A stretch of 64,000 nucleotides of DNA from a virus: the IMG/VR virus record IMGVR_UViG_3300048925_000129. The stretch is one strand, 5' to 3'. Position numbers and translations under genes: made by a program. Below, in pieces: positions 45,698-64,000 of the stretch (the first letter of the stretch is position 1; the number at the start of each line of letters is the position of its first letter). Under the pieces are notes generated by a model that was given only the letters and a program-made list of their open reading frames with translations, was not told where the DNA came from and made no database searches.

Positions 45698-46357
45698 TTA
45701 TAAATTTTCTTTAATAAATGATGTAAATCCTAATTCTTCTAAAGGTTCTAATGTTTTTCTTGTAGCTTGTTGCCAACAATTTTTAAGTAGTACTAGAACC
45801 TCTTCTCTGCTATAAGTATCCTTTACTTTTTTAATAGTAATAGTATTGTCTGAGTCTACTTTTAATCTTTCTTTAAATTTACCATAAATGGCAGGAGAAT
45901 TTGGTTTAGTATTATAAAACTCATATTCAACCAACACATCTTCAATTACATTACCTTTGTTATACTCTTCAATAAACTTTTTGATAAATGATTGAGAAAC
46001 ATTAGGATGTGGTTTTAATTCTAGCCACTGGTCTGTTGTAGCTATTATTTTTTTACAACTACCATAATTATAGTTTTCAATACATCTTTCTAAATCTTCT
46101 TTAGTAACTTTTATTAACTCTGTGGGAGCCAGTGGTGATAATCCTTCTAAACACCAATCACCTTCTTTAATCTCTTCGTCACTCAATATATAAAGATGTT
46201 GAGATATCAATTCATCTAAAGAAGATTCAGGCTTATTATATAACCCTGTTTTATTTTCTTCTAGATCTAAATATATTGTACTTTTATTTTCAGTAGCCAA
46301 CATAACTACTTTACATTGTTGGTAATATTTACCATTTTGTTCTTTTAAACTTGACAT
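45698..46357 (-). CDS. Hypothetical phage protein
   Basis: QHLYILSDEEIKEGDW and KKIIATTD motifs; start MSSLKEQ (the longer start runs through the tRNA-like element). Confidence 0.7.
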   Translation of the reverse strand: MSSLKEQNGKYYQQCKVVMLATENKSTIYLDLEENKTGLYNKPESSLDELISQHLYILSDEEIKEGDWCLEGLSPLAPTELIKVTKEDLERCIENYNYGSCKKIIATTDQWLELKPHPNVSQSFIKKFIEEYNKGNVIEDVLVEYEFYNTKPNSPAIYGKFKERLKVDSDNTITIKKVKDTYSREEVLVLLKNCWQQATRKTLEPLEELGFTSFIKENL

Positions 46358-46384
46358 ATGTTCTTTGTTTTTAAGATTAATTTG

Positions 46385-46468
46385 TAGTGTAAGGGGGAAT
46401 CGAACCCCCTGACCTTGCTCCAGTATTAATACTATCATCACAATGCTCTACCACTGAGCTATACACTT
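46385..46468 (-). ncRNA. tRNA-like RNA with canonical D- and T-arms but no canonical anticodon arm
   Basis: AGTGTA-TA-GCTC-AGTGGTA-GAGC-A-[29 nt]-GGTC-AGGGGG-TTCGATT-CCCCCT-TACACT-A. Confidence 0.75.
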
Positions 46469-55213: not shown

Positions 55214-55699
55214 TTAATTTGATTTAATTATTGCTAACCCAATTTCTTCTAAGCTCTTTCTATCTTTGAATTTACCATTCATTGTGTAAGCCCAGCAACT
55301 ACCAACATCATATCCCTTTGCTGATAATTCTTTATACCCATATGAACCAATTAGTCTGAACCAATTCCCTTTTAATCCGTCATTAGTATCAGCAACATAA
55401 GAAATCATGGCAGTTCCAAGATTAGCTTTATTTCTGGACTCACTACTCATTCTAAAATGTTTCATAGAAAAGTCTCTAAATAACTCTTGAAGAGCTTTAT
55501 TATACCTCATTTCTTCGGCTACTTCAAACATTTCCTCCTCACTCAGATCATAAACTGATTTAAGGCTTAATTTGTACCCATCATCTACAAGTCTTTCAAT
55601 ATTATCTATTGTCAGAGTTTCAATTCTGTTTTCACTTTCCTTAATACACTCTTGCCCTAAGTATTCGGCAAAGATCTTTATTTTGGTGTTTTTATCCAT
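55214..55699 (-). CDS. Hypothetical protein, related to 40537-41199
   Basis: KIFAEYLGQ, L.LK....LSEEE, GYD motifs. Confidence 0.65.
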   Translation of the reverse strand: MDKNTKIKIFAEYLGQECIKESENRIETLTIDNIERLVDDGYKLSLKSVYDLSEEEMFEVAEEMRYNKALQELFRDFSMKHFRMSSESRNKANLGTAMISYVADTNDGLKGNWFRLIGSYGYKELSAKGYDVGSCWAYTMNGKFKDRKSLEEIGLAIIKSN

Positions 55700-55713: not shown

Positions 55714-55779
55714 GCACCACTAGGGGGAAGTCGAACCCCCGTTCCTATTATTTCAGAACCCCAAACCTGAGAAGTGATG
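55714..55779 (-). ncRNA. Minimal tRNA-like element
   Basis: Acceptor-like stem CATCACT/AGTGGTG, T-arm GGGGG-TTCGACTT-CCCCC, two small internal hairpins. Confidence 0.6.
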
Positions 55780-60276: not shown

Positions 60277-60903
60277 CTATTTAAAATCGGTTTTATTATT
60301 TCTGAAATAAACCCATGTAGCAGACTGTACAATTAAAGGGCTTACATTTAGTTTTTCACCTGCCTTTTGATAAGCAGATACAAAGAACTCGTATTGAATT
60401 TTAGTCATACCCTGATAAAAATCATCTGTACATACTACACCCGTGGCAATACTCAATGCATGTCTATCAATGGTGATATTATCTCCATTGTTTGGGTGTA
60501 GAATATTCTTACAAAAGGCTGTTATTTTTCTACCATTAAGGATTTTATATGTTTGCTCTTCACTTTGTGCAAAATCCATAATTAATTGAGCCTTTTCACA
60601 AAATTGTCTCATGTGAGAACGTTGTTTGCCTCCTGATTTAATAAACAATTCTGCAATCCTTTTATTATCGTCCCATCTTTTAACAGGTGATAAGGCAGCA
60701 ATTACACCACATGCAACAAACAACTGTACATTATATGTTTTACTCAAATAGATGGCAAAATTGTGTGCCTCCTGATACCAGTCATATTTATCTGATTCAC
60801 TGCATAACATAAAAACAGACATGATATTTTTAGTTACTTTGTTAAGAGTGTATGACTTATGTTTGTATGTAATTTTTGGCATGGTTTTAAAATTTGCATT
60901 CAT
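60277..60903 (-). CDS. HhH-GPD/glycosylase-like phage protein (DUF7178-like)
   Basis: WY..A, GVIAALSP...W..N, G.KITAF..NI, TIDRH, QSATW. Confidence 0.7.
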   Translation of the reverse strand: MNANFKTMPKITYKHKSYTLNKVTKNIMSVFMLCSESDKYDWYQEAHNFAIYLSKTYNVQLFVACGVIAALSPVKRWDDNKRIAELFIKSGGKQRSHMRQFCEKAQLIMDFAQSEEQTYKILNGRKITAFCKNILHPNNGDNITIDRHALSIATGVVCTDDFYQGMTKIQYEFFVSAYQKAGEKLNVSPLIVQSATWVYFRNNKTDFK

Positions 60904-60919
60904 AATATTATCTTTTATT

Positions 60920-61614
60920 GTGGGTGTGAGCCGACCGAACGGCTCTATCCTGTATCATTACTTTAATCTGTTCTTCGTTGGGTAAGACCTTCAATCCTAG
61001 AAGGCACTTCACATTAATTTCATGTGTGAGAATTATCCCCTATGGGAACACCCGTTGCATATTTGCTTTAAACACGTTATGTCCGTGCTGATAAAATCAG
61101 ATTTTCTTAATAGTCCTGTGCCTCTTACTGCCATTTACTAGAGCTACACTTTTCAGCCGACAAAAATCTACGTATTACACCCCCTCAGAATTTGCCATAA
61201 TTCTTACCTCATGTAATATGTCAGCCTATTACTAAAAACCTGTGCAATCCCGTTGCACTCCTATTTATCCCGTTGAATTCAAAGACCCCGACCTTTACAG
61301 GTGGGAAAACCTTTACTCTTTAGTTTGTTACATTCTGTACTCTGGTAGGTATCCATTCTCTTTAACATTGTCATGCATTAGATTTTCTAATGTATTTCAT
61401 TCACCTACAATTTCAAACAGTAACGACTTTATTAATCCCAATACTCAAACATTAAACCCGTGAGGGCTGATGAGTTAATCTATTTTATAAAGTCCTAAAT
61501 TTCAAAGAATTCTGCTCTCGGTTTTATCCTACGTTTCAGAGTTTTTATAAGTCTTATAACTATTATATAGTAGCCTGACTGCCAGTGACTTATTTATTGT
61601 CTCTCTGTGTTTCT
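60920..61614 (-). ncRNA. Candidate large structured ncRNA or early leader RNA with boxA-like element and 3' tRNA-like domain
   Basis: No minus-strand ORF in the ORF track over ~700 nt after the promoter at 61619; many nested inverted repeats; TTCTTTGAAA at 61500-61509; GGGTGT/ACACCC stem plus GAGCCG-TTCGGT-CGGCTC arm at the 3' end. Confidence 0.65.
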
Positions 61615-61618
61615 ATTG

Positions 61619-61680
61619 CAAAGTTACAATTAAATTTTAAACCACCAAATAAAATGTAAAAAATTTTTTATTTATTTTTT
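61619..61680 (-). promoter_or_regulatory. Strong early promoter with AT-rich UP-like tract (second candidate promoter at 61752-61782)
   Basis: TTG-N19-TAACTTTG preceded by A/T tracts; no TTAACA box. Confidence 0.75.
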
Positions 61681-62140
61681 AAAACCCTGTGTTTATCAGT
61701 GTTCCCGTGGTTTTGATGTTTAAAAACTATTGCTCTGTCGTTTTGACATTGCAAAGATGTGAAATTAAGTAATACCAAACAAATCCCCTGTTTATAGGCA
61801 TTACAGAAGAAAAACCTCTGGAAAAGCCCATGAATAGGGCTATCAATTTTTGAAAAAAGATTTTAAAAAATTTTATCTTTTTTATGTAAGTGACTGAAAA
61901 TCAGTGAGAAAAATTTCATTTATTTTTTTGGTCTTGTGTGTTGTGAGTGTTGAATGTGATTAAAACCCTCAAAAATCGGTAAACTCTTACTGAAATAAAC
62001 AGGCTTATATAATACTATACAATAGAACAAACAAAGAACACACAGAAACAGCCCTAAAATCGTTTATCTTTTTAAAGTAATATAAATACCTTACTAAATA
62101 GATTGAAGGCTTAAAAGAGCTTATTTGATACCTTAAAGCA

Positions 62141-62172
62141 CAAAAAAAGGCTCACATGTTAATGCAAGCCTT
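62141..62172 (-). terminator. Intrinsic terminator
   Basis: Minus strand AAGGCTTGCAT-TAAC-ATGTGAGCCTT followed by TTTTT. Confidence 0.8.
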
Positions 62173-62194
62173 AAAGATTTGTTTCAGATAGTGT

Positions 62195-62535
62195 TTAGCA
62201 GAGATTATATATAGTAAGACTAATAACAGTTAACACAATAAAAGCAAGCCCCAATAAAACTAACTCTGTTTTAGATTCCTGTTTATTATAGACCCATAAG
62301 CCCGTTAATTGATTAAATTCAATGTCACAATATTGTGCATGTGGGAAAACCTCTAATAGTTCGGAATAGCTTTTAAATGATGTCATAATATTTAATTTAA
62401 GATTAATAAACCCTTTTTAGTTAGTACGTATTGGCTGTAGGTTATTTTAGTTATTAAACCCATCTTTGTTAATGTGTATATTTCTGAGCTGTTTAAGTAT
62501 TCATTGTTAACCAGCTTTGTTAATGATGCCTTCAT
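62195..62535 (-). CDS. Two-gene mini-operon of small proteins (62392-62535; 62195-62386 with C-terminal TM helix)
   Basis: Flanked by -7 element TATCTTTG (62573-62580) and terminator (62141-62172). Confidence 0.55.
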
Positions 62536-63674
62536 AAGGTGTAGTAGTTTGTTTAGTTGTTTCTTAATGGTGCAAAGATAAGGCATTTAGAATGTAAACC
62601 AGCATAAACCAGTATATTTTTTTATCAATCTGCCATTTGTAATTGATAAGTTATTGATTATCAGTGAGTTAATATATAAAATATTAGATGTGTGGCTTTA
62701 CAAGGGCAAATTATGAAACTTTCAGTAATTATTGAAAGTTCAATAAGTTTTAGAACTCCAACCCCCTTACAAAGGACACACCCCACTTTTCACCACCATT
62801 TAACCCAATTAAAAATAATAATTACATTATTCGTAACGAAAGTGAATAAAAACCTGTAGACTAAAGATAAAACCCCGTGAAAAAGTTAGCCTCAACAATT
62901 TATTTTGCAATAAAATAATAGTTTTGTTGTGAATAATGCAATGAATTAAATGAATTAAACAGGCTTTAAACCCTGTAAAACAGGGGTCAAGCCGAGCCCG
63001 ACCCGTGCCCGTGATGTGGTTTGATGTGTTGGTGTGTTTGTATGCCTTTGGTTTTTGGTCAGTATGATTGAACCGATTTTCTTATGTGTGAAGCTTATAA
63101 GCATTTAGAATGACATGACCAAACTATTTAACCATAAATTTAAAACTTTAACACTGTTCTATTTAGTTTCAGAGAGATAAGCCCCCGATTTAAACACATA
63201 CTGACAAATTAAAGTGTTAAAAACATATCTCACAGGCTCAAATAAAGCCTCAATTATTTATTATGTATTATGTATCCACCCAATAAGAGTTAAGCAATTT
63301 AAAGGCAATTTGGAATACACAATAGCAATTTAGTTAAAATTTGTTAAAATCAATTTGCAATTAAAATTATTATTCAGACTAAATATAAATAAGTCATCAC
63401 ATTTGTTTTTGTCAGAATGTCGAAATGGACTTTTCAGAATATCACATTGTCACCTCTCACGGCTGCCCCTGAGAAGAGATAAAACCAGAAAACCAGAAAA
63501 ATAAAAACTCAGAAAATTAACTTTATTTAGACTGGATAAAAATCCCTGACAAAAGGTCAGTTCCTTTCATGGGGGTGTGCCAAAAAGTCTCGATTGGGTG
63601 GGGGTATGTTTTCTATATGGGTAACCGATCTACACATATAATGGAGTTTTACCAATTACTACTGAGGTATCACC

Positions 63675-63705
63675 AAAAAAGAAACCCCTTTGATGGGAGG
63701 GGTAT
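63675..63705 (-). terminator. Intrinsic terminator
   Basis: Minus strand ACCCCT-CCCATCAA-AGGGGT followed by TTCTTTTTT. Confidence 0.75.
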
Positions 63706-63709
63706 GTTA

Positions 63710-63955
63710 TTATTCGAATAACCAGTCTGGCAGGATCACTCCTCCCTGCTGGTAGTTTTTCTTCAGTACAATGTTTGGAAAGTTGGCTCTTTTTCTGATA
63801 CTCTTAAACTTGTCACTCTCCTCCTGCATTAGCTTAGGTCTGTCAAATCCTAACTCATCTAGCTGAGGATATAGCTCTCCTAACATTTCATCCATCTTCT
63901 CCTGGCTACCAAAGAAAGGGTACTGCTTTGCTTCATTTGTGCTCATTCCATTCAT
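63710..63955 (-). CDS. Hypothetical protein (may begin upstream, beyond the window edge)
   Basis: ORF ends just before a terminator. Confidence 0.5.
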   Translation of the reverse strand: MNGMSTNEAKQYPFFGSQEKMDEMLGELYPQLDELGFDRPKLMQEESDKFKSIRKRANFPNIVLKKNYQQGGVILPDWLFE

Positions 63956-64000
63956 AGGGATAAACCCGTCTTGATAGGCTTCAAATTTTTTACCTTCCTG

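What the first reader, a model, noticed from the sequence alone, without database searches (positions are those of the whole stretch)
60920..61614. Candidate novel ~700-nt structured RNA at the head of the early transcript, ending in a tRNA-like domain
Seen: in an otherwise wall-to-wall coding genome, ~700 nt after the promoter at 61619 has no sense ORF but is packed with nested pairings: 61425-61432/61487-61494; 61327-61331/61420-61424 enclosing 61345-61350/61403-61408 and 61376-61382/61386-61392; ACCT-GTAA-AGGT GNRA hairpin at 61291-61302; 61242-61247/61253-61258; 61187-61192/61199-61204; 61099-61105/61163-61169. CAACGGG occurs three times (61051, 61249, 61269). The last ~130 nt close as GGGTGT/ACACCC with a TTCG-loop arm, like the tRNA-like domain of tmRNA. 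Established: large phage ncRNAs (GOLLD, ROOL) and cis-acting antiterminator RNAs (HK022 put) exist; I do not recognise this sequence as any of them. Inference: a new large ncRNA class acting as antiterminator, protein sponge or scaffold, matured through its tRNA-like end.
Basis: partly seen in the sequence, partly recalled or inferred. Interest (0 to 1): 0.85.

Follow-up and report, generated by a model that had tools for sequence, protein, structure and literature searches.

The report
New large structured phage RNA
A roughly 690-nucleotide non-coding RNA at the head of an early operon in a 159-kb phage folds into about 25 helices that are conserved in seven related phages. It matches no known RNA family, so it looks like a new class of large "ornate" phage RNA, and its function is still unknown.

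Summary
Window 60918-61605 (minus strand) is ORF-free, lies behind a Bacteroidota-type promoter and is a genuinely structured RNA.

- **Homologues:** I found six in related ~157-160-kb phages from metagenomes.
- **Structure:** On a 7-sequence alignment of the ~610-nt core, the consensus has 142 pairs in 25 helices. 95% of cells are paired, and 62 pairs change on both sides. No shuffle (0 of 500) or slid control comes near these values.
- **Strand:** G-U pairs outnumber A-C mismatches 106 to 9 on the gene strand, so the RNA is read from that strand.
- **Selection:** The RNA is more conserved (64-90% nt) than the neighbouring gene (52-84% nt; third codon positions 38-67%).
- **Downstream gene:** It differs from phage to phage.
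- **Known families:** No Rfam family matches, even at E<=10. ARAGORN finds nothing.
- **tRNA-like end:** Partly supported. An invariant 6-bp helix abuts a 6-bp UUCG-loop hairpin, followed by the A-CAA trailer typical of this phage's 23 tRNA genes. There is no cloverleaf.
- **Against:** Single-sequence MFE is no better than shuffles. There is no expression data. Only seven sequences from one clade are known.

Best reading: a new large phage ncRNA, co-transcribed with early genes and probably released by tRNA-type processing. It resembles GOLLD and ROOL in setting, not in sequence. The scan's first readers noted the same class on two other genomes (e1-3424862, e1-5678044).

The parts
62147..62172 (-). 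Intrinsic terminator (11-bp hairpin plus T7) that ends the upstream operon and marks the start of the conserved 1.3-kb block
   Evidence: Terminator scan. The hairpin is kept by compensatory changes in all 7 phages (alignment A3 columns 44-75).
61825..61841 (-). Small hairpin with an invariant 7-nt loop followed by a U-run. It lies promoter-proximal and may be a weak terminator or attenuator.
   Evidence: The stem and loop are invariant in 6 of 7 phages, so covariation cannot be tested.
61752..61785 (-). Promoter P1. The -7 box at 61752-61759 is invariant in all 7 phages. It departs from TAnnTTTG at its first base only. A TTTG lies about 20 nt upstream.
   Evidence: P1-like modules also stand at the upstream ends of other ORF-free gaps of the genome.
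61680..61700 (-). Second small hairpin (7-nt loop, 3-5-bp stem) plus a U-run, between P1 and P2
   Evidence: The stem changes on both sides between lineages while the loop stays the same (A3 columns about 541-560).
61619..61649 (-). Promoter P2, an exact match to the Bacteroidota-type consensus TTTG-N19-TAnnTTTG. The inferred transcription start is near 61605.
   Evidence: 12 matches in the window against 3.45 expected. The -33 and -7 boxes are conserved in all 7 phages.
61512..61605 (-). Variable 5' leader. It is poorly conserved and largely deleted in L023, with one small hairpin present in 5 of 7 phages.
   Evidence: A3 columns 663-800.
61306..61511 (-). Domain 1: a multi-branched fold (helices 1-11).
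   Evidence: 28 of the 60 pairs in helices 1-11 change on both sides. Helices 7 and 9 are 100% paired.
61288..61305 (-). Hairpin H12. The stem is conserved by covariation. The loop varies between phages (GUAA, UUCG and others).
   Evidence: helix 12: 3 covarying pairs, 97.8% paired.
61264..61287 (-). Nearly invariant unpaired segment that holds a 10-nt self-complementary stretch. Its last 6 nt (61264-61269) are the 5' strand of a long-range helix.
   Evidence: (helix 13).
61242..61258 (-). It is replaced by other sequence in L019, L022 and L027.
61108..61237 (-). Domain 2: a long arm (helices 14-17, with an invariant loop and flanks around 61187-61204) plus hairpin H18, which has a large conserved loop
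   Evidence: Helices 15 and 16 have 12 of 14 pairs changed on both sides. Model R2 finds a single copy in the window and the two flanking stretches searched.
61071..61095 (-). The 3' strand of the long-range helix (61090-61095) followed by hairpin H19 (61071-61089)
   Evidence: The pairing 61264-61269/61090-61095 is 100% paired, with 2 covarying pairs.
60922..61053 (-). 3' domain and most conserved part (69-95% nt identity between phages). It has an invariant 6-bp closing helix (61048-53/60922-27), three inner hairpins, a 36-nt conserved unpaired stretch and a UUCG-loop hairpin (60928-60945) that abuts the closing helix.
   Evidence: Model R1 finds one copy per genome in three complete phage records.
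60918..60921 (-). Invariant ACAA trailer directly after the closing helix. It has the same form as the discriminator-plus-CAA trailer of this phage's tRNA genes.
60277..60903 (-). First downstream gene (208 aa, DUF7178), whose start codon lies 14 nt after the trailer. In the other phages a different gene follows the RNA.

Best explanation
Window 60918-61605 (minus strand) encodes a new family of large, multi-domain ("ornate") phage RNA: a conserved core of about 610 nt behind a variable 5' leader.

**Shown**
- It is non-coding and under stronger purifying selection than its neighbours.
- It folds into about 25 helices supported by covariation.
- It is read from the gene strand and is present once per genome in a small clade of ~157-160-kb phages that use Bacteroidota-type promoters.
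- It always ends 11-31 nt before the first start codon of a variable block of small early genes.

**Inferred**
- It is transcribed by host RNA polymerase from the tandem promoters P1 and P2, as the 5' part of the early polycistronic transcript.
- Its 3' domain ends in a 12-bp stack of closing helix plus UUCG-loop hairpin, followed by A-CAA. This imitates the acceptor/T-arm minihelix and trailer of the phage's own tRNA genes.
- The host's tRNA-processing enzymes (RNase Z-type 3' cleavage, possibly RNase P at 61053/61054) therefore cut the RNA away from the mRNA.
- This would leave a stable, abundant RNA that acts in trans as a scaffold or decoy, and a downstream mRNA with a short leader.

The molecular target is unknown.

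**Confidence.** The figure of 0.5 is for this whole composite reading. That the region is a genuine, conserved, structured RNA of a new family I put above 0.9.
For: **Homologues.** Six were found through the flanking genes. The block is ORF-free in all of them.

**Structure.** RNAalifold gives 143 pairs at -99.4 kcal/mol, with a covariation term of -18.1. With one added long-range helix the structure has 142 pairs and is 95.3% paired, against 83.3% in shuffles. 62 pairs change on both sides, against 34 in shuffles (0 of 500 reach 62). Slid controls give 36-47% paired and 6-16 covarying pairs.

**Strand.** G-U 106 against A-C 9 on the minus strand. The antisense alignment folds to only -73 kcal/mol.

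**Negative control.** The next conserved ORF-free block (62600-63680), in the same phages plus L024 and by the same method, gives only 36 pairs at -12 kcal/mol with a covariation term of +1.3.

**Selection.** RNA core 64-90% nt identity. The adjacent 639-aa gene shows 52-84% nt, 38-67% at third codon positions and 40-86% aa.

**Downstream gene.** It differs in win, L003/L021, L019, L022, L023 and L027. No terminator lies between the RNA and the start codon.

**tRNA-type end.** The closing helix and ACAA are invariant in 7 of 7. All 23 tRNA genes of this genome encode C74, and 15 have CAA after the discriminator. A genuine tRNA (46384-46467) and a tRNA-like element (55714-55779) also sit just before start codons. 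A 22-tRNA island lies 5-17 kb upstream in the direction of transcription.

**No known family.**
Against: - There is no transcript evidence.
- Sense-strand MFE z-scores are not significant: -0.85, and -0.9, +0.8, -0.7 and -1.5.
- Only 7 sequences from one clade are known, so many covarying cells are inherited rather than independent events.
- The closing helix is invariant, so covariation cannot test it.
- The hairpin loop has 6 nt and no A58, so it is not a canonical T-loop. Processing by RNase P or RNase Z is pure inference.
- The RNA has no terminator of its own, so a purely cis-acting role cannot be excluded.
- Helix 1 is weak (78.6% paired).
Confidence: 0.5

Rival explanations
1. The RNA is a cis-acting leader of the early operon. 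It stays attached to the mRNA and works on its own transcript. It might make RNA polymerase resistant to termination (an rrn-type boxA complex or a put-like RNA), keep Rho off a long untranslated stretch, or protect the mRNA 5' end from decay.
For: - The RNA has no terminator of its own and ends 11-31 nt before a start codon in all 7 phages.
- It sits behind tandem promoters about 140 nt apart, as rrn P1 and P2 are. That comparison rests on my own knowledge.
- A boxA-like U-rich stretch lies at 61500-61540 (scan note e1-5700565). A similar stretch follows P1.
- Two hairpin/U-run modules lie upstream and could be targets of antitermination.
Against: - Known cis antiterminator RNAs have about 70-130 nt (my knowledge), not 610 nt with 25 helices and many invariant unpaired bases.
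- Only two weak terminator-like sites lie on the gene strand in the 8 kb downstream of the RNA.
- The boxA-like stretch forms the 5' strands of helices 1 and 2 in the consensus structure.
- The RNA has more G than C (C 14.8%), so it is a poor Rho loading site anyway.
- The tRNA-type trailer fits cleavage better than retention.
Confidence: 0.28
2. The RNA is a catalytic or self-processing RNA (a new ribozyme class). Its fold would serve cleavage, ligation or another reaction, for instance on tRNAs or on its own transcript.
For: - Its size, its multi-domain fold and its many invariant unpaired nucleotides are features that large ribozymes share.
- The phage also carries RNA-repair genes (an RNA ligase and an RlaP-type nucleotidyltransferase) and 23 tRNAs.
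Against: - It matches no ribozyme family in Rfam: group I and II introns, RNase P and the small self-cleavers.
- No exon-like flanks or repeats were seen.
- Nothing in the sequence points to a specific reaction.
Confidence: 0.07
3. The block acts at the DNA level (replication origin, packaging site or recombination anchor), and the hairpins are DNA structures or chance.
For: - The block lies in a 2.8-kb ORF-poor region with AT-rich repeats.
- A 1.2-kb insertion in L003 begins exactly at its 3' edge.
- The 3' domain shows mosaic ancestry: L003 against L019 is 95% identical, L003 against the window 84%.
Against: - G-U pairs outnumber A-C 106 to 9 on one strand. Such asymmetry fits pairing within the gene-strand transcript; on the complementary strand the same sites would be A-C mismatches.
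- 62 pairs are compensated, against 6-16 in slid controls.
- The neighbouring conserved block shows no such signal.
Confidence: 0.03

Closest known systems
GOLLD RNA (Rfam RF01998)
   Same: - It is a very large, multi-domain structured RNA of unknown function, encoded by phages and prophages, often next to tRNA islands or joined to a tRNA.
- Its 3' part is universally conserved and its 5' part less so (PMC12286853).
- Here too the 3' domain is the most conserved part and the 5' leader varies. A 22-tRNA island lies just upstream, and the RNA ends in a tRNA-like minihelix.
   Different: - There is no sequence or structure match to the GOLLD model, even at E<=10 on a 626-nt query.
- This RNA is shorter: a core of about 610 nt against more than 800 nt.
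- It is found only in phages with Bacteroidota-type promoters.
- It forms the head of an early mRNA instead of standing alone.
- Oligomerisation is untested.
ROOL RNA (Rfam RF03087)
   Same: It has a similar size (about 580-660 nt), is encoded by phages and prophages often near tRNA islands, has an ornate fold with long-range pairings, and has no known protein partner or function (PMC12286853).
   Different: There is no match to the ROOL model. The helices and conserved motifs are different. The hosts differ: ROOL occurs mostly in Bacillota and rumen samples (my knowledge), whereas this RNA occurs in phages with Bacteroidota-type promoters.
tmRNA tRNA-like domain, and tRNA-like 3' ends used for processing (MALAT1 mascRNA; plant-virus TLS)
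   Same: A terminal helix stacked on a hairpin with a UUCG-type loop closes a much larger RNA, and the sequence after the helix looks like a tRNA trailer. In MALAT1 such a module is cut by RNase P and RNase Z to make the 3' end of a long ncRNA (my knowledge).
   Different: - The helix has 6 bp, not 7, and the hairpin loop has 6 nt without A58.
- No CCA is encoded and there is no D-arm analogue.
- No tag reading frame exists: a 1-nt indel between homologues falls in the candidate frame.
- The 5' strand of the helix is internal, not at the 5' end of the RNA.
- ARAGORN and the Rfam tRNA, tmRNA and mascRNA models do not detect it.
Processive antitermination leaders (HK022 put RNA; rrn boxB-boxA-boxC leaders)
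   Same: It is promoter-proximal, untranslated and co-transcribed with the genes it precedes. It has a U-rich boxA-like stretch and small hairpins just after the promoters (notes e1-5700565, e1-5678044).
   Different: It is five to ten times larger and far more complex than these leaders. The boxA-like stretch is base-paired in the consensus fold. Few terminators lie downstream. Binding of Nus factors is untested.

Membership tests
GOLLD (RF01998) | Match to the family covariance model (sequence plus structure) | tested here: not met
   cmscan found no hit at the gathering score on the window, at E<=10 on 3.3 kb or at E<=10 on 626 nt.
ROOL (RF03087) | Match to the family covariance model | tested here: not met
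   No hit.
OLE, HEARO, raiA and other large bacterial ncRNAs in Rfam | Match to any of the 4227 Rfam 15 models | tested here: not met
   The only hit on the region is SNORA47 on the opposite strand, at 16 bits and E=0.62, which is chance.
tmRNA | Detection by ARAGORN or by the Rfam tmRNA models (standard and permuted) | tested here: not met
   ARAGORN finds only tRNA-Ile in the window. No tmRNA hit at E<=10.
tmRNA | A tag reading frame ending in stop codons, conserved among homologues | tested here: not met
   The only short frame with a double stop, in the 36-nt unpaired stretch 60946-60981, is shifted by a 1-nt indel in 4 of 7 homologues.
tRNA or tRNA-like structure | Cloverleaf with D, anticodon and T arms; a 7-nt T-loop with the U54-A58 pair | tested here: not met
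   No ARAGORN or RF00005 hit. The loop has 6 nt with G at the fifth position in 6 of 7 phages, and 7 nt with C there in L027.
tRNA or tRNA-like structure | Acceptor-like helix stacked directly on a T-arm-like hairpin (about 12 bp), followed by a tRNA-type trailer | tested here: met
   6 bp plus 6 bp with no spacer in 6 of 7 phages, and 6 plus 5 in L027. ACAA is invariant. 15 of this phage's 23 tRNA genes have the discriminator followed by CAA.
RNase P RNA | Match to the bacterial type A or B models (P4 pseudoknot, conserved regions CR-I to CR-V) | tested here: not met
   No hit at E<=10. The resemblance I recalled between 61118-61152 and CR-II/CR-III remains a recollection only.
Group I or group II intron | Match to the intron models; flanking exons of a split gene | tested here: not met
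   No Rfam hit. The flanks are a promoter and an unrelated, variable gene.
rrn-type or lambda-type antitermination leader | A boxA that binds NusB/NusE, single-stranded, with an adjacent boxB hairpin | not testable with these tools
   There is only a loose sequence resemblance at 61500-61540 (note e1-5700565). That stretch forms the 5' strands of helices 1 and 2.
   with the negative control.
   Sense-strand z-scores are -0.85 and -0.9, +0.8, -0.7 and -1.5.

The most novel reading that the evidence does not exclude
This is a third, independent class of phage "ornate" RNA that, like GOLLD and ROOL, builds an RNA-only homo-oligomeric particle or otherwise works without protein. One candidate contact is the conserved unpaired self-complementary 10-mer at about 61270-61280, which is kept as a shorter palindrome in L021. 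Its covalently attached tRNA-like module would engage the host tRNA machinery (RNase P, RNase Z, the CCA-adding enzyme or anticodon nucleases) as a decoy or a delivery handle. If so, phages of unrelated bacterial phyla would have converged on large RNA machines placed beside tRNA islands.
Probability: 0.15. Interest if true: 0.92.

Novelty: categorically new. Interest (0 to 1): 0.82.

Why it matters
Few classes of structured bacterial or phage RNA longer than 500 nt are known: rRNAs, group II introns, OLE, GOLLD, ROOL and HEARO. Each has turned out to be either catalytic or architecturally surprising.

This RNA is a further class with very clean covariation from only seven sequences. It comes from a phage clade with no cultured relative, whose promoter type suggests a different host phylum from ROOL's. 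It is physically joined to a tRNA-like processing module and lies next to a tRNA island.

That combination makes a long-standing question testable: what do phages gain from large RNAs placed beside their tRNA genes? The system has defined promoters, defined ends and a defined structure model. It also supplies a natural case for studying whether bacteria and phages use tRNA-type "punctuation" to cut a non-coding RNA from an mRNA.

Caveat: an unnamed fragment of this RNA could already sit among the roughly 10,000 candidate structured RNAs predicted from IMG/VR (PMC10690425). I could not check that by sequence.

Tried and rejected
- **Stop-codon recoding to open an ORF:** rejected. TAA is abundant in all frames.
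- **Close or distant DNA relatives among 50,697 deposited phage genomes:** none. The nearest DNA polymerase is 24% identical to that of crAss-like phages.
- **CAACGGG-pair pattern:** hits in IMG/VR other than the known relative were chance. One was a collagen-like coding repeat.
- **Two invariant-motif patterns** scanned over viral, metagenome and genome collections: only the two known IMG/VR relatives came back.
- **Distant relatives of the flanking 639-aa protein:** a profile search found 352 proteins, but the two next-best sit on contigs too short to show the downstream region. The ESM Atlas gave nothing for this protein.
- **tmRNA idea:** I recalled a likeness between 61261-61283 and the tmRNA 5' end. 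Rejected because no model hit exists, the termini do not pair, and there is no conserved tag frame.
- **RNase P idea:** I recalled a likeness to CR-II/CR-III. No model hit, so it remains an untested recollection.
- **Paralogues in the same genome:** none. Models R1 and R2 found nothing further in the window or two flanking stretches, and R1 found one copy in each of three complete records.
- **Second large RNA in 62600-63680:** the block is conserved but shows no consensus structure.
- **Search for further pseudoknots by covariation:** only one extra helix was found.
- **Palindromic stretches as oligomerisation sites:** a 10-nt palindrome is expected about once by chance in 600 AU-rich nt (my estimate), so it is only a lead.

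Full report
**Setting**

The window is bases 80770-144769 of a complete 159,132-bp IMG/VR virus record with about 34% G+C. All genes in the window lie on the minus strand. The record's ends repeat 126 bp, which fits a circular or terminally redundant genome.

The phage encodes a family A DNA polymerase, ribonucleotide reductase, NAMPT, an RNA ligase and an RlaP-type nucleotidyltransferase. It has no DNA relative among deposited phages. Its polymerase is only 24% identical to those of crAss-like phages.

The Bacteroidota-type promoter consensus TTTG-N17-21-TAnnTTTG occurs 12 times in the window, against 3.45 expected (0 of 100 shuffles reach 12). Seven of these are on the gene strand, and all seven fall between the listed ORFs.

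**The observation**

Region 60904-63710 has no ORF longer than 64 aa. Every frame is rich in TAA, so no recoding opens a gene. Neither Rfam at gathering score nor Rfam at E<=10 on 3.3 kb or 626 nt finds any family there, and ARAGORN finds nothing.

Single-sequence folding is unimpressive on the sense strand. The z-score is -0.85 for 717 nt, and -0.9, +0.8, -0.7 and -1.5 for the core in four phages. Oddly, the antisense strand of the window scores about -3.

**Homologues**

The flanking genes led to six related phages:
- L003 (IMG/VR, 160 kb)
- L019 (IMG/VR, 157 kb)
- L021, L022, L023 and L027 (ENA and Logan contigs)

An eighth lineage (L024) breaks off at the start of the block.

All seven full loci hold an ORF-free block of about 1.3 kb that aligns with window 62187-60900. 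Pattern scans of the viral, metagenome and genome collections with invariant motifs found no further members. Each of three complete genomes holds exactly one copy.

**Structure**

On the 7-sequence core alignment A4 (window 61525-60912), RNAalifold predicts 143 pairs in 24 helices at -99.4 kcal/mol, with a covariation term of -18.1.

A covariation scan added one long-range helix, 61264-61269 with 61090-61095. It is 100% paired and has two covarying pairs. It replaces the weakly supported outer part of one hairpin at no energy cost.

The revised model has these properties:

| Measure | Model | Shuffles (500) | Slid controls |
|---|---|---|---|
| Pairs / helices | 142 / 25 | | |
| Cells paired | 95.3% | 83.3% | 36-47% |
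| Pairs changed on both sides | 62 | 34 (0 of 500 reach 62) | 6-16 |

On the minus strand the paired cells contain 106 G-U and 9 A-C. The antisense alignment folds to only -73 kcal/mol. The RNA is therefore read from the gene strand.

As a control, I treated the next conserved ORF-free block (62600-63680; 69-80% identical in most of the relatives, in shorter stretches in three) in the same way. It gives only 36 pairs, -12 kcal/mol and a positive covariation term.

Two more are the same elements with shifted coordinates, one is lineage-specific and one is unsupported.

**Selection and context**

| Comparison (pairwise) | Identity |
|---|---|
| RNA core, nt | 64-90% |
| RNA 3' domain, nt | 69-95% |
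| Adjacent 639-aa gene, nt | 52-84% |
| Adjacent gene, third codon positions | 38-67% |
| Adjacent gene, aa | 40-86% |

Indels are mostly 1-2 nt, and no stop-free frame is shared among homologues.

The gene that follows the RNA differs between phages:
- a DUF7178 protein in the window
- a 144-aa protein in L003 and L021
- unrelated 64-108-aa ORFs in L019, L022, L023 and L027

In every case the RNA ends 11-31 nt before the start codon, with no terminator between. A gene-specific riboswitch-like role is therefore unlikely.

**The upstream 570 nt of the block**

This part holds the following elements:
- an intrinsic terminator (62147-62172), kept by compensatory changes
- two small hairpins with conserved 7-nt loops followed by U-runs (61825-61841 and about 61680-61700; the second has a covarying stem)
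- an invariant promoter P1, with its -7 box at 61752-61759
- promoter P2

P1-like modules also head the genome's other ORF-free gaps.

**The 3' domain (61053-60922)**

This is the best-conserved part of the RNA. An invariant 6-bp helix closes a junction that carries three hairpins, a 36-nt conserved unpaired stretch and a hairpin whose loop begins UUCG. The 3' strand of that hairpin runs straight into the closing helix, giving a 12-bp stack as in a tRNA's acceptor stem plus T arm.

Directly after the helix, all seven phages have ACAA. All 23 tRNA genes of this genome encode C74, and 15 have CAA after the discriminator. A true tRNA-Ile and a small tRNA-like element also sit just before start codons.

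This supports a tRNA-type processing signal. The domain still fails every membership test for tRNA or tmRNA:
- no cloverleaf
- a 6-nt loop without A58
- no conserved tag frame
- no model hit

**Interpretation**

It is established that this is a new, conserved, structured RNA family. I put that at above 0.9.

The mechanism is inferred: co-transcription with early genes from host-type promoters, release by tRNA-processing enzymes, then action in trans. I give this composite reading about 0.5.

The main rival is a purely cis-acting leader (antitermination, protection from Rho, or mRNA stability), at about 0.28. A ribozyme and a DNA-level element are minor rivals.

By setting, the closest analogues are GOLLD and ROOL. 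These are large phage-borne RNAs near tRNA islands with unknown function, and they form RNA-only cages (PMC12286853). There is no homology to them.

**Limits**

- Only seven sequences from one clade are available.
- There are no expression data.
- The closing helix is invariant and so cannot be tested by covariation.
- The catalogue of IMG/VR candidate RNAs (PMC10690425) could not be searched by sequence.

First readers of this scan noted what appears to be the same class on two other genomes (e1-3424862, e1-5678044).

Noticed in passing
window 62600-63680 (minus strand): A second ORF-free block of about 1 kb, directly after the 639-aa gene, is conserved in the relatives (69-80% identity; near full length in L003 and L024, in shorter stretches in the others). 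It shows no consensus RNA structure: 36 pairs, -12 kcal/mol, covariation term +1.3. It has C-runs, G-runs and repeated AT-rich motifs, so it may be a regulatory or DNA-level element.
   Followed up: partly
L030:2000-2997 (Logan SRR20950854 contig, 7.6 kb): A more distant phage has the same P1-type promoter and start of transcript. This is followed by a different ORF-free leader of about 970 nt, placed before a homologue of the 144-aa gene. Only a weak hit of the 3'-domain model falls at its very end (E=0.088). It contains a 24-nt direct repeat about 480 nt apart. It may be a diverged member or a different large RNA in the same slot.
   Followed up: partly
genome G000:C1:147126-158992 (beyond the window's end; held as L016): An island of 22 tRNA genes on the gene strand lies 5-17 kb upstream of the RNA in the direction of transcription. 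It includes a CUA-anticodon (amber suppressor-type) tRNA. All 23 tRNA genes of the genome encode C74 but only one encodes CCA, and 15 have CAA after the discriminator.
   Followed up: partly
window 55714-55779 (minus strand): A small tRNA-like element with a 7-bp acceptor-like stem and a canonical-looking T arm (UUCGACU loop), followed by G-CAA. It ends 14 nt before the ATG at 55699. ARAGORN does not call it.
   Followed up: partly
window 46384-46467 (minus strand): The tRNA-Ile(GAU) is 84 nt long, with extra sequence in the anticodon region. It ends 27 nt before an ATG. The listed GTG-start ORF 45698-46441 overlaps it and probably starts later.
   Followed up: no
L003:3783-4998 compared with window 60916: Homology between the window and L003 breaks exactly at the 3' edge of the RNA. 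There L003 carries 1.2 kb of extra small genes. The 3' domain of L003 is closer to L019 (95%) than to the window (84%), although L003 is the window's closest relative overall. This suggests recombination inside or at the edge of the RNA gene.
   Followed up: partly
window 60904-61620, plus strand: The antisense strand of the window's copy folds better than its shuffles (z about -3.0 to -3.5), while the sense strand does not. In three other phages the antisense z is only -0.9 to -1.9. This is unexplained and may be an effect of base composition.
   Followed up: partly
genome G000:C1:1-126 and 158984-159109: The record's two ends share an identical 126-bp direct repeat, although IMG/VR classes the record as linear. 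This could be an assembly overlap of a circular map or a terminal redundancy.
   Followed up: no
window 63710-64000 and L016:180-2099 (639-aa protein): The full-length conserved upstream neighbour has no Pfam domain and is found in only eight lineages. Parts of it have 352 distant relatives, some longer than 2,000 aa. Its function is unknown, and its close full-length relatives occur in the same phages as the RNA.
   Followed up: partly
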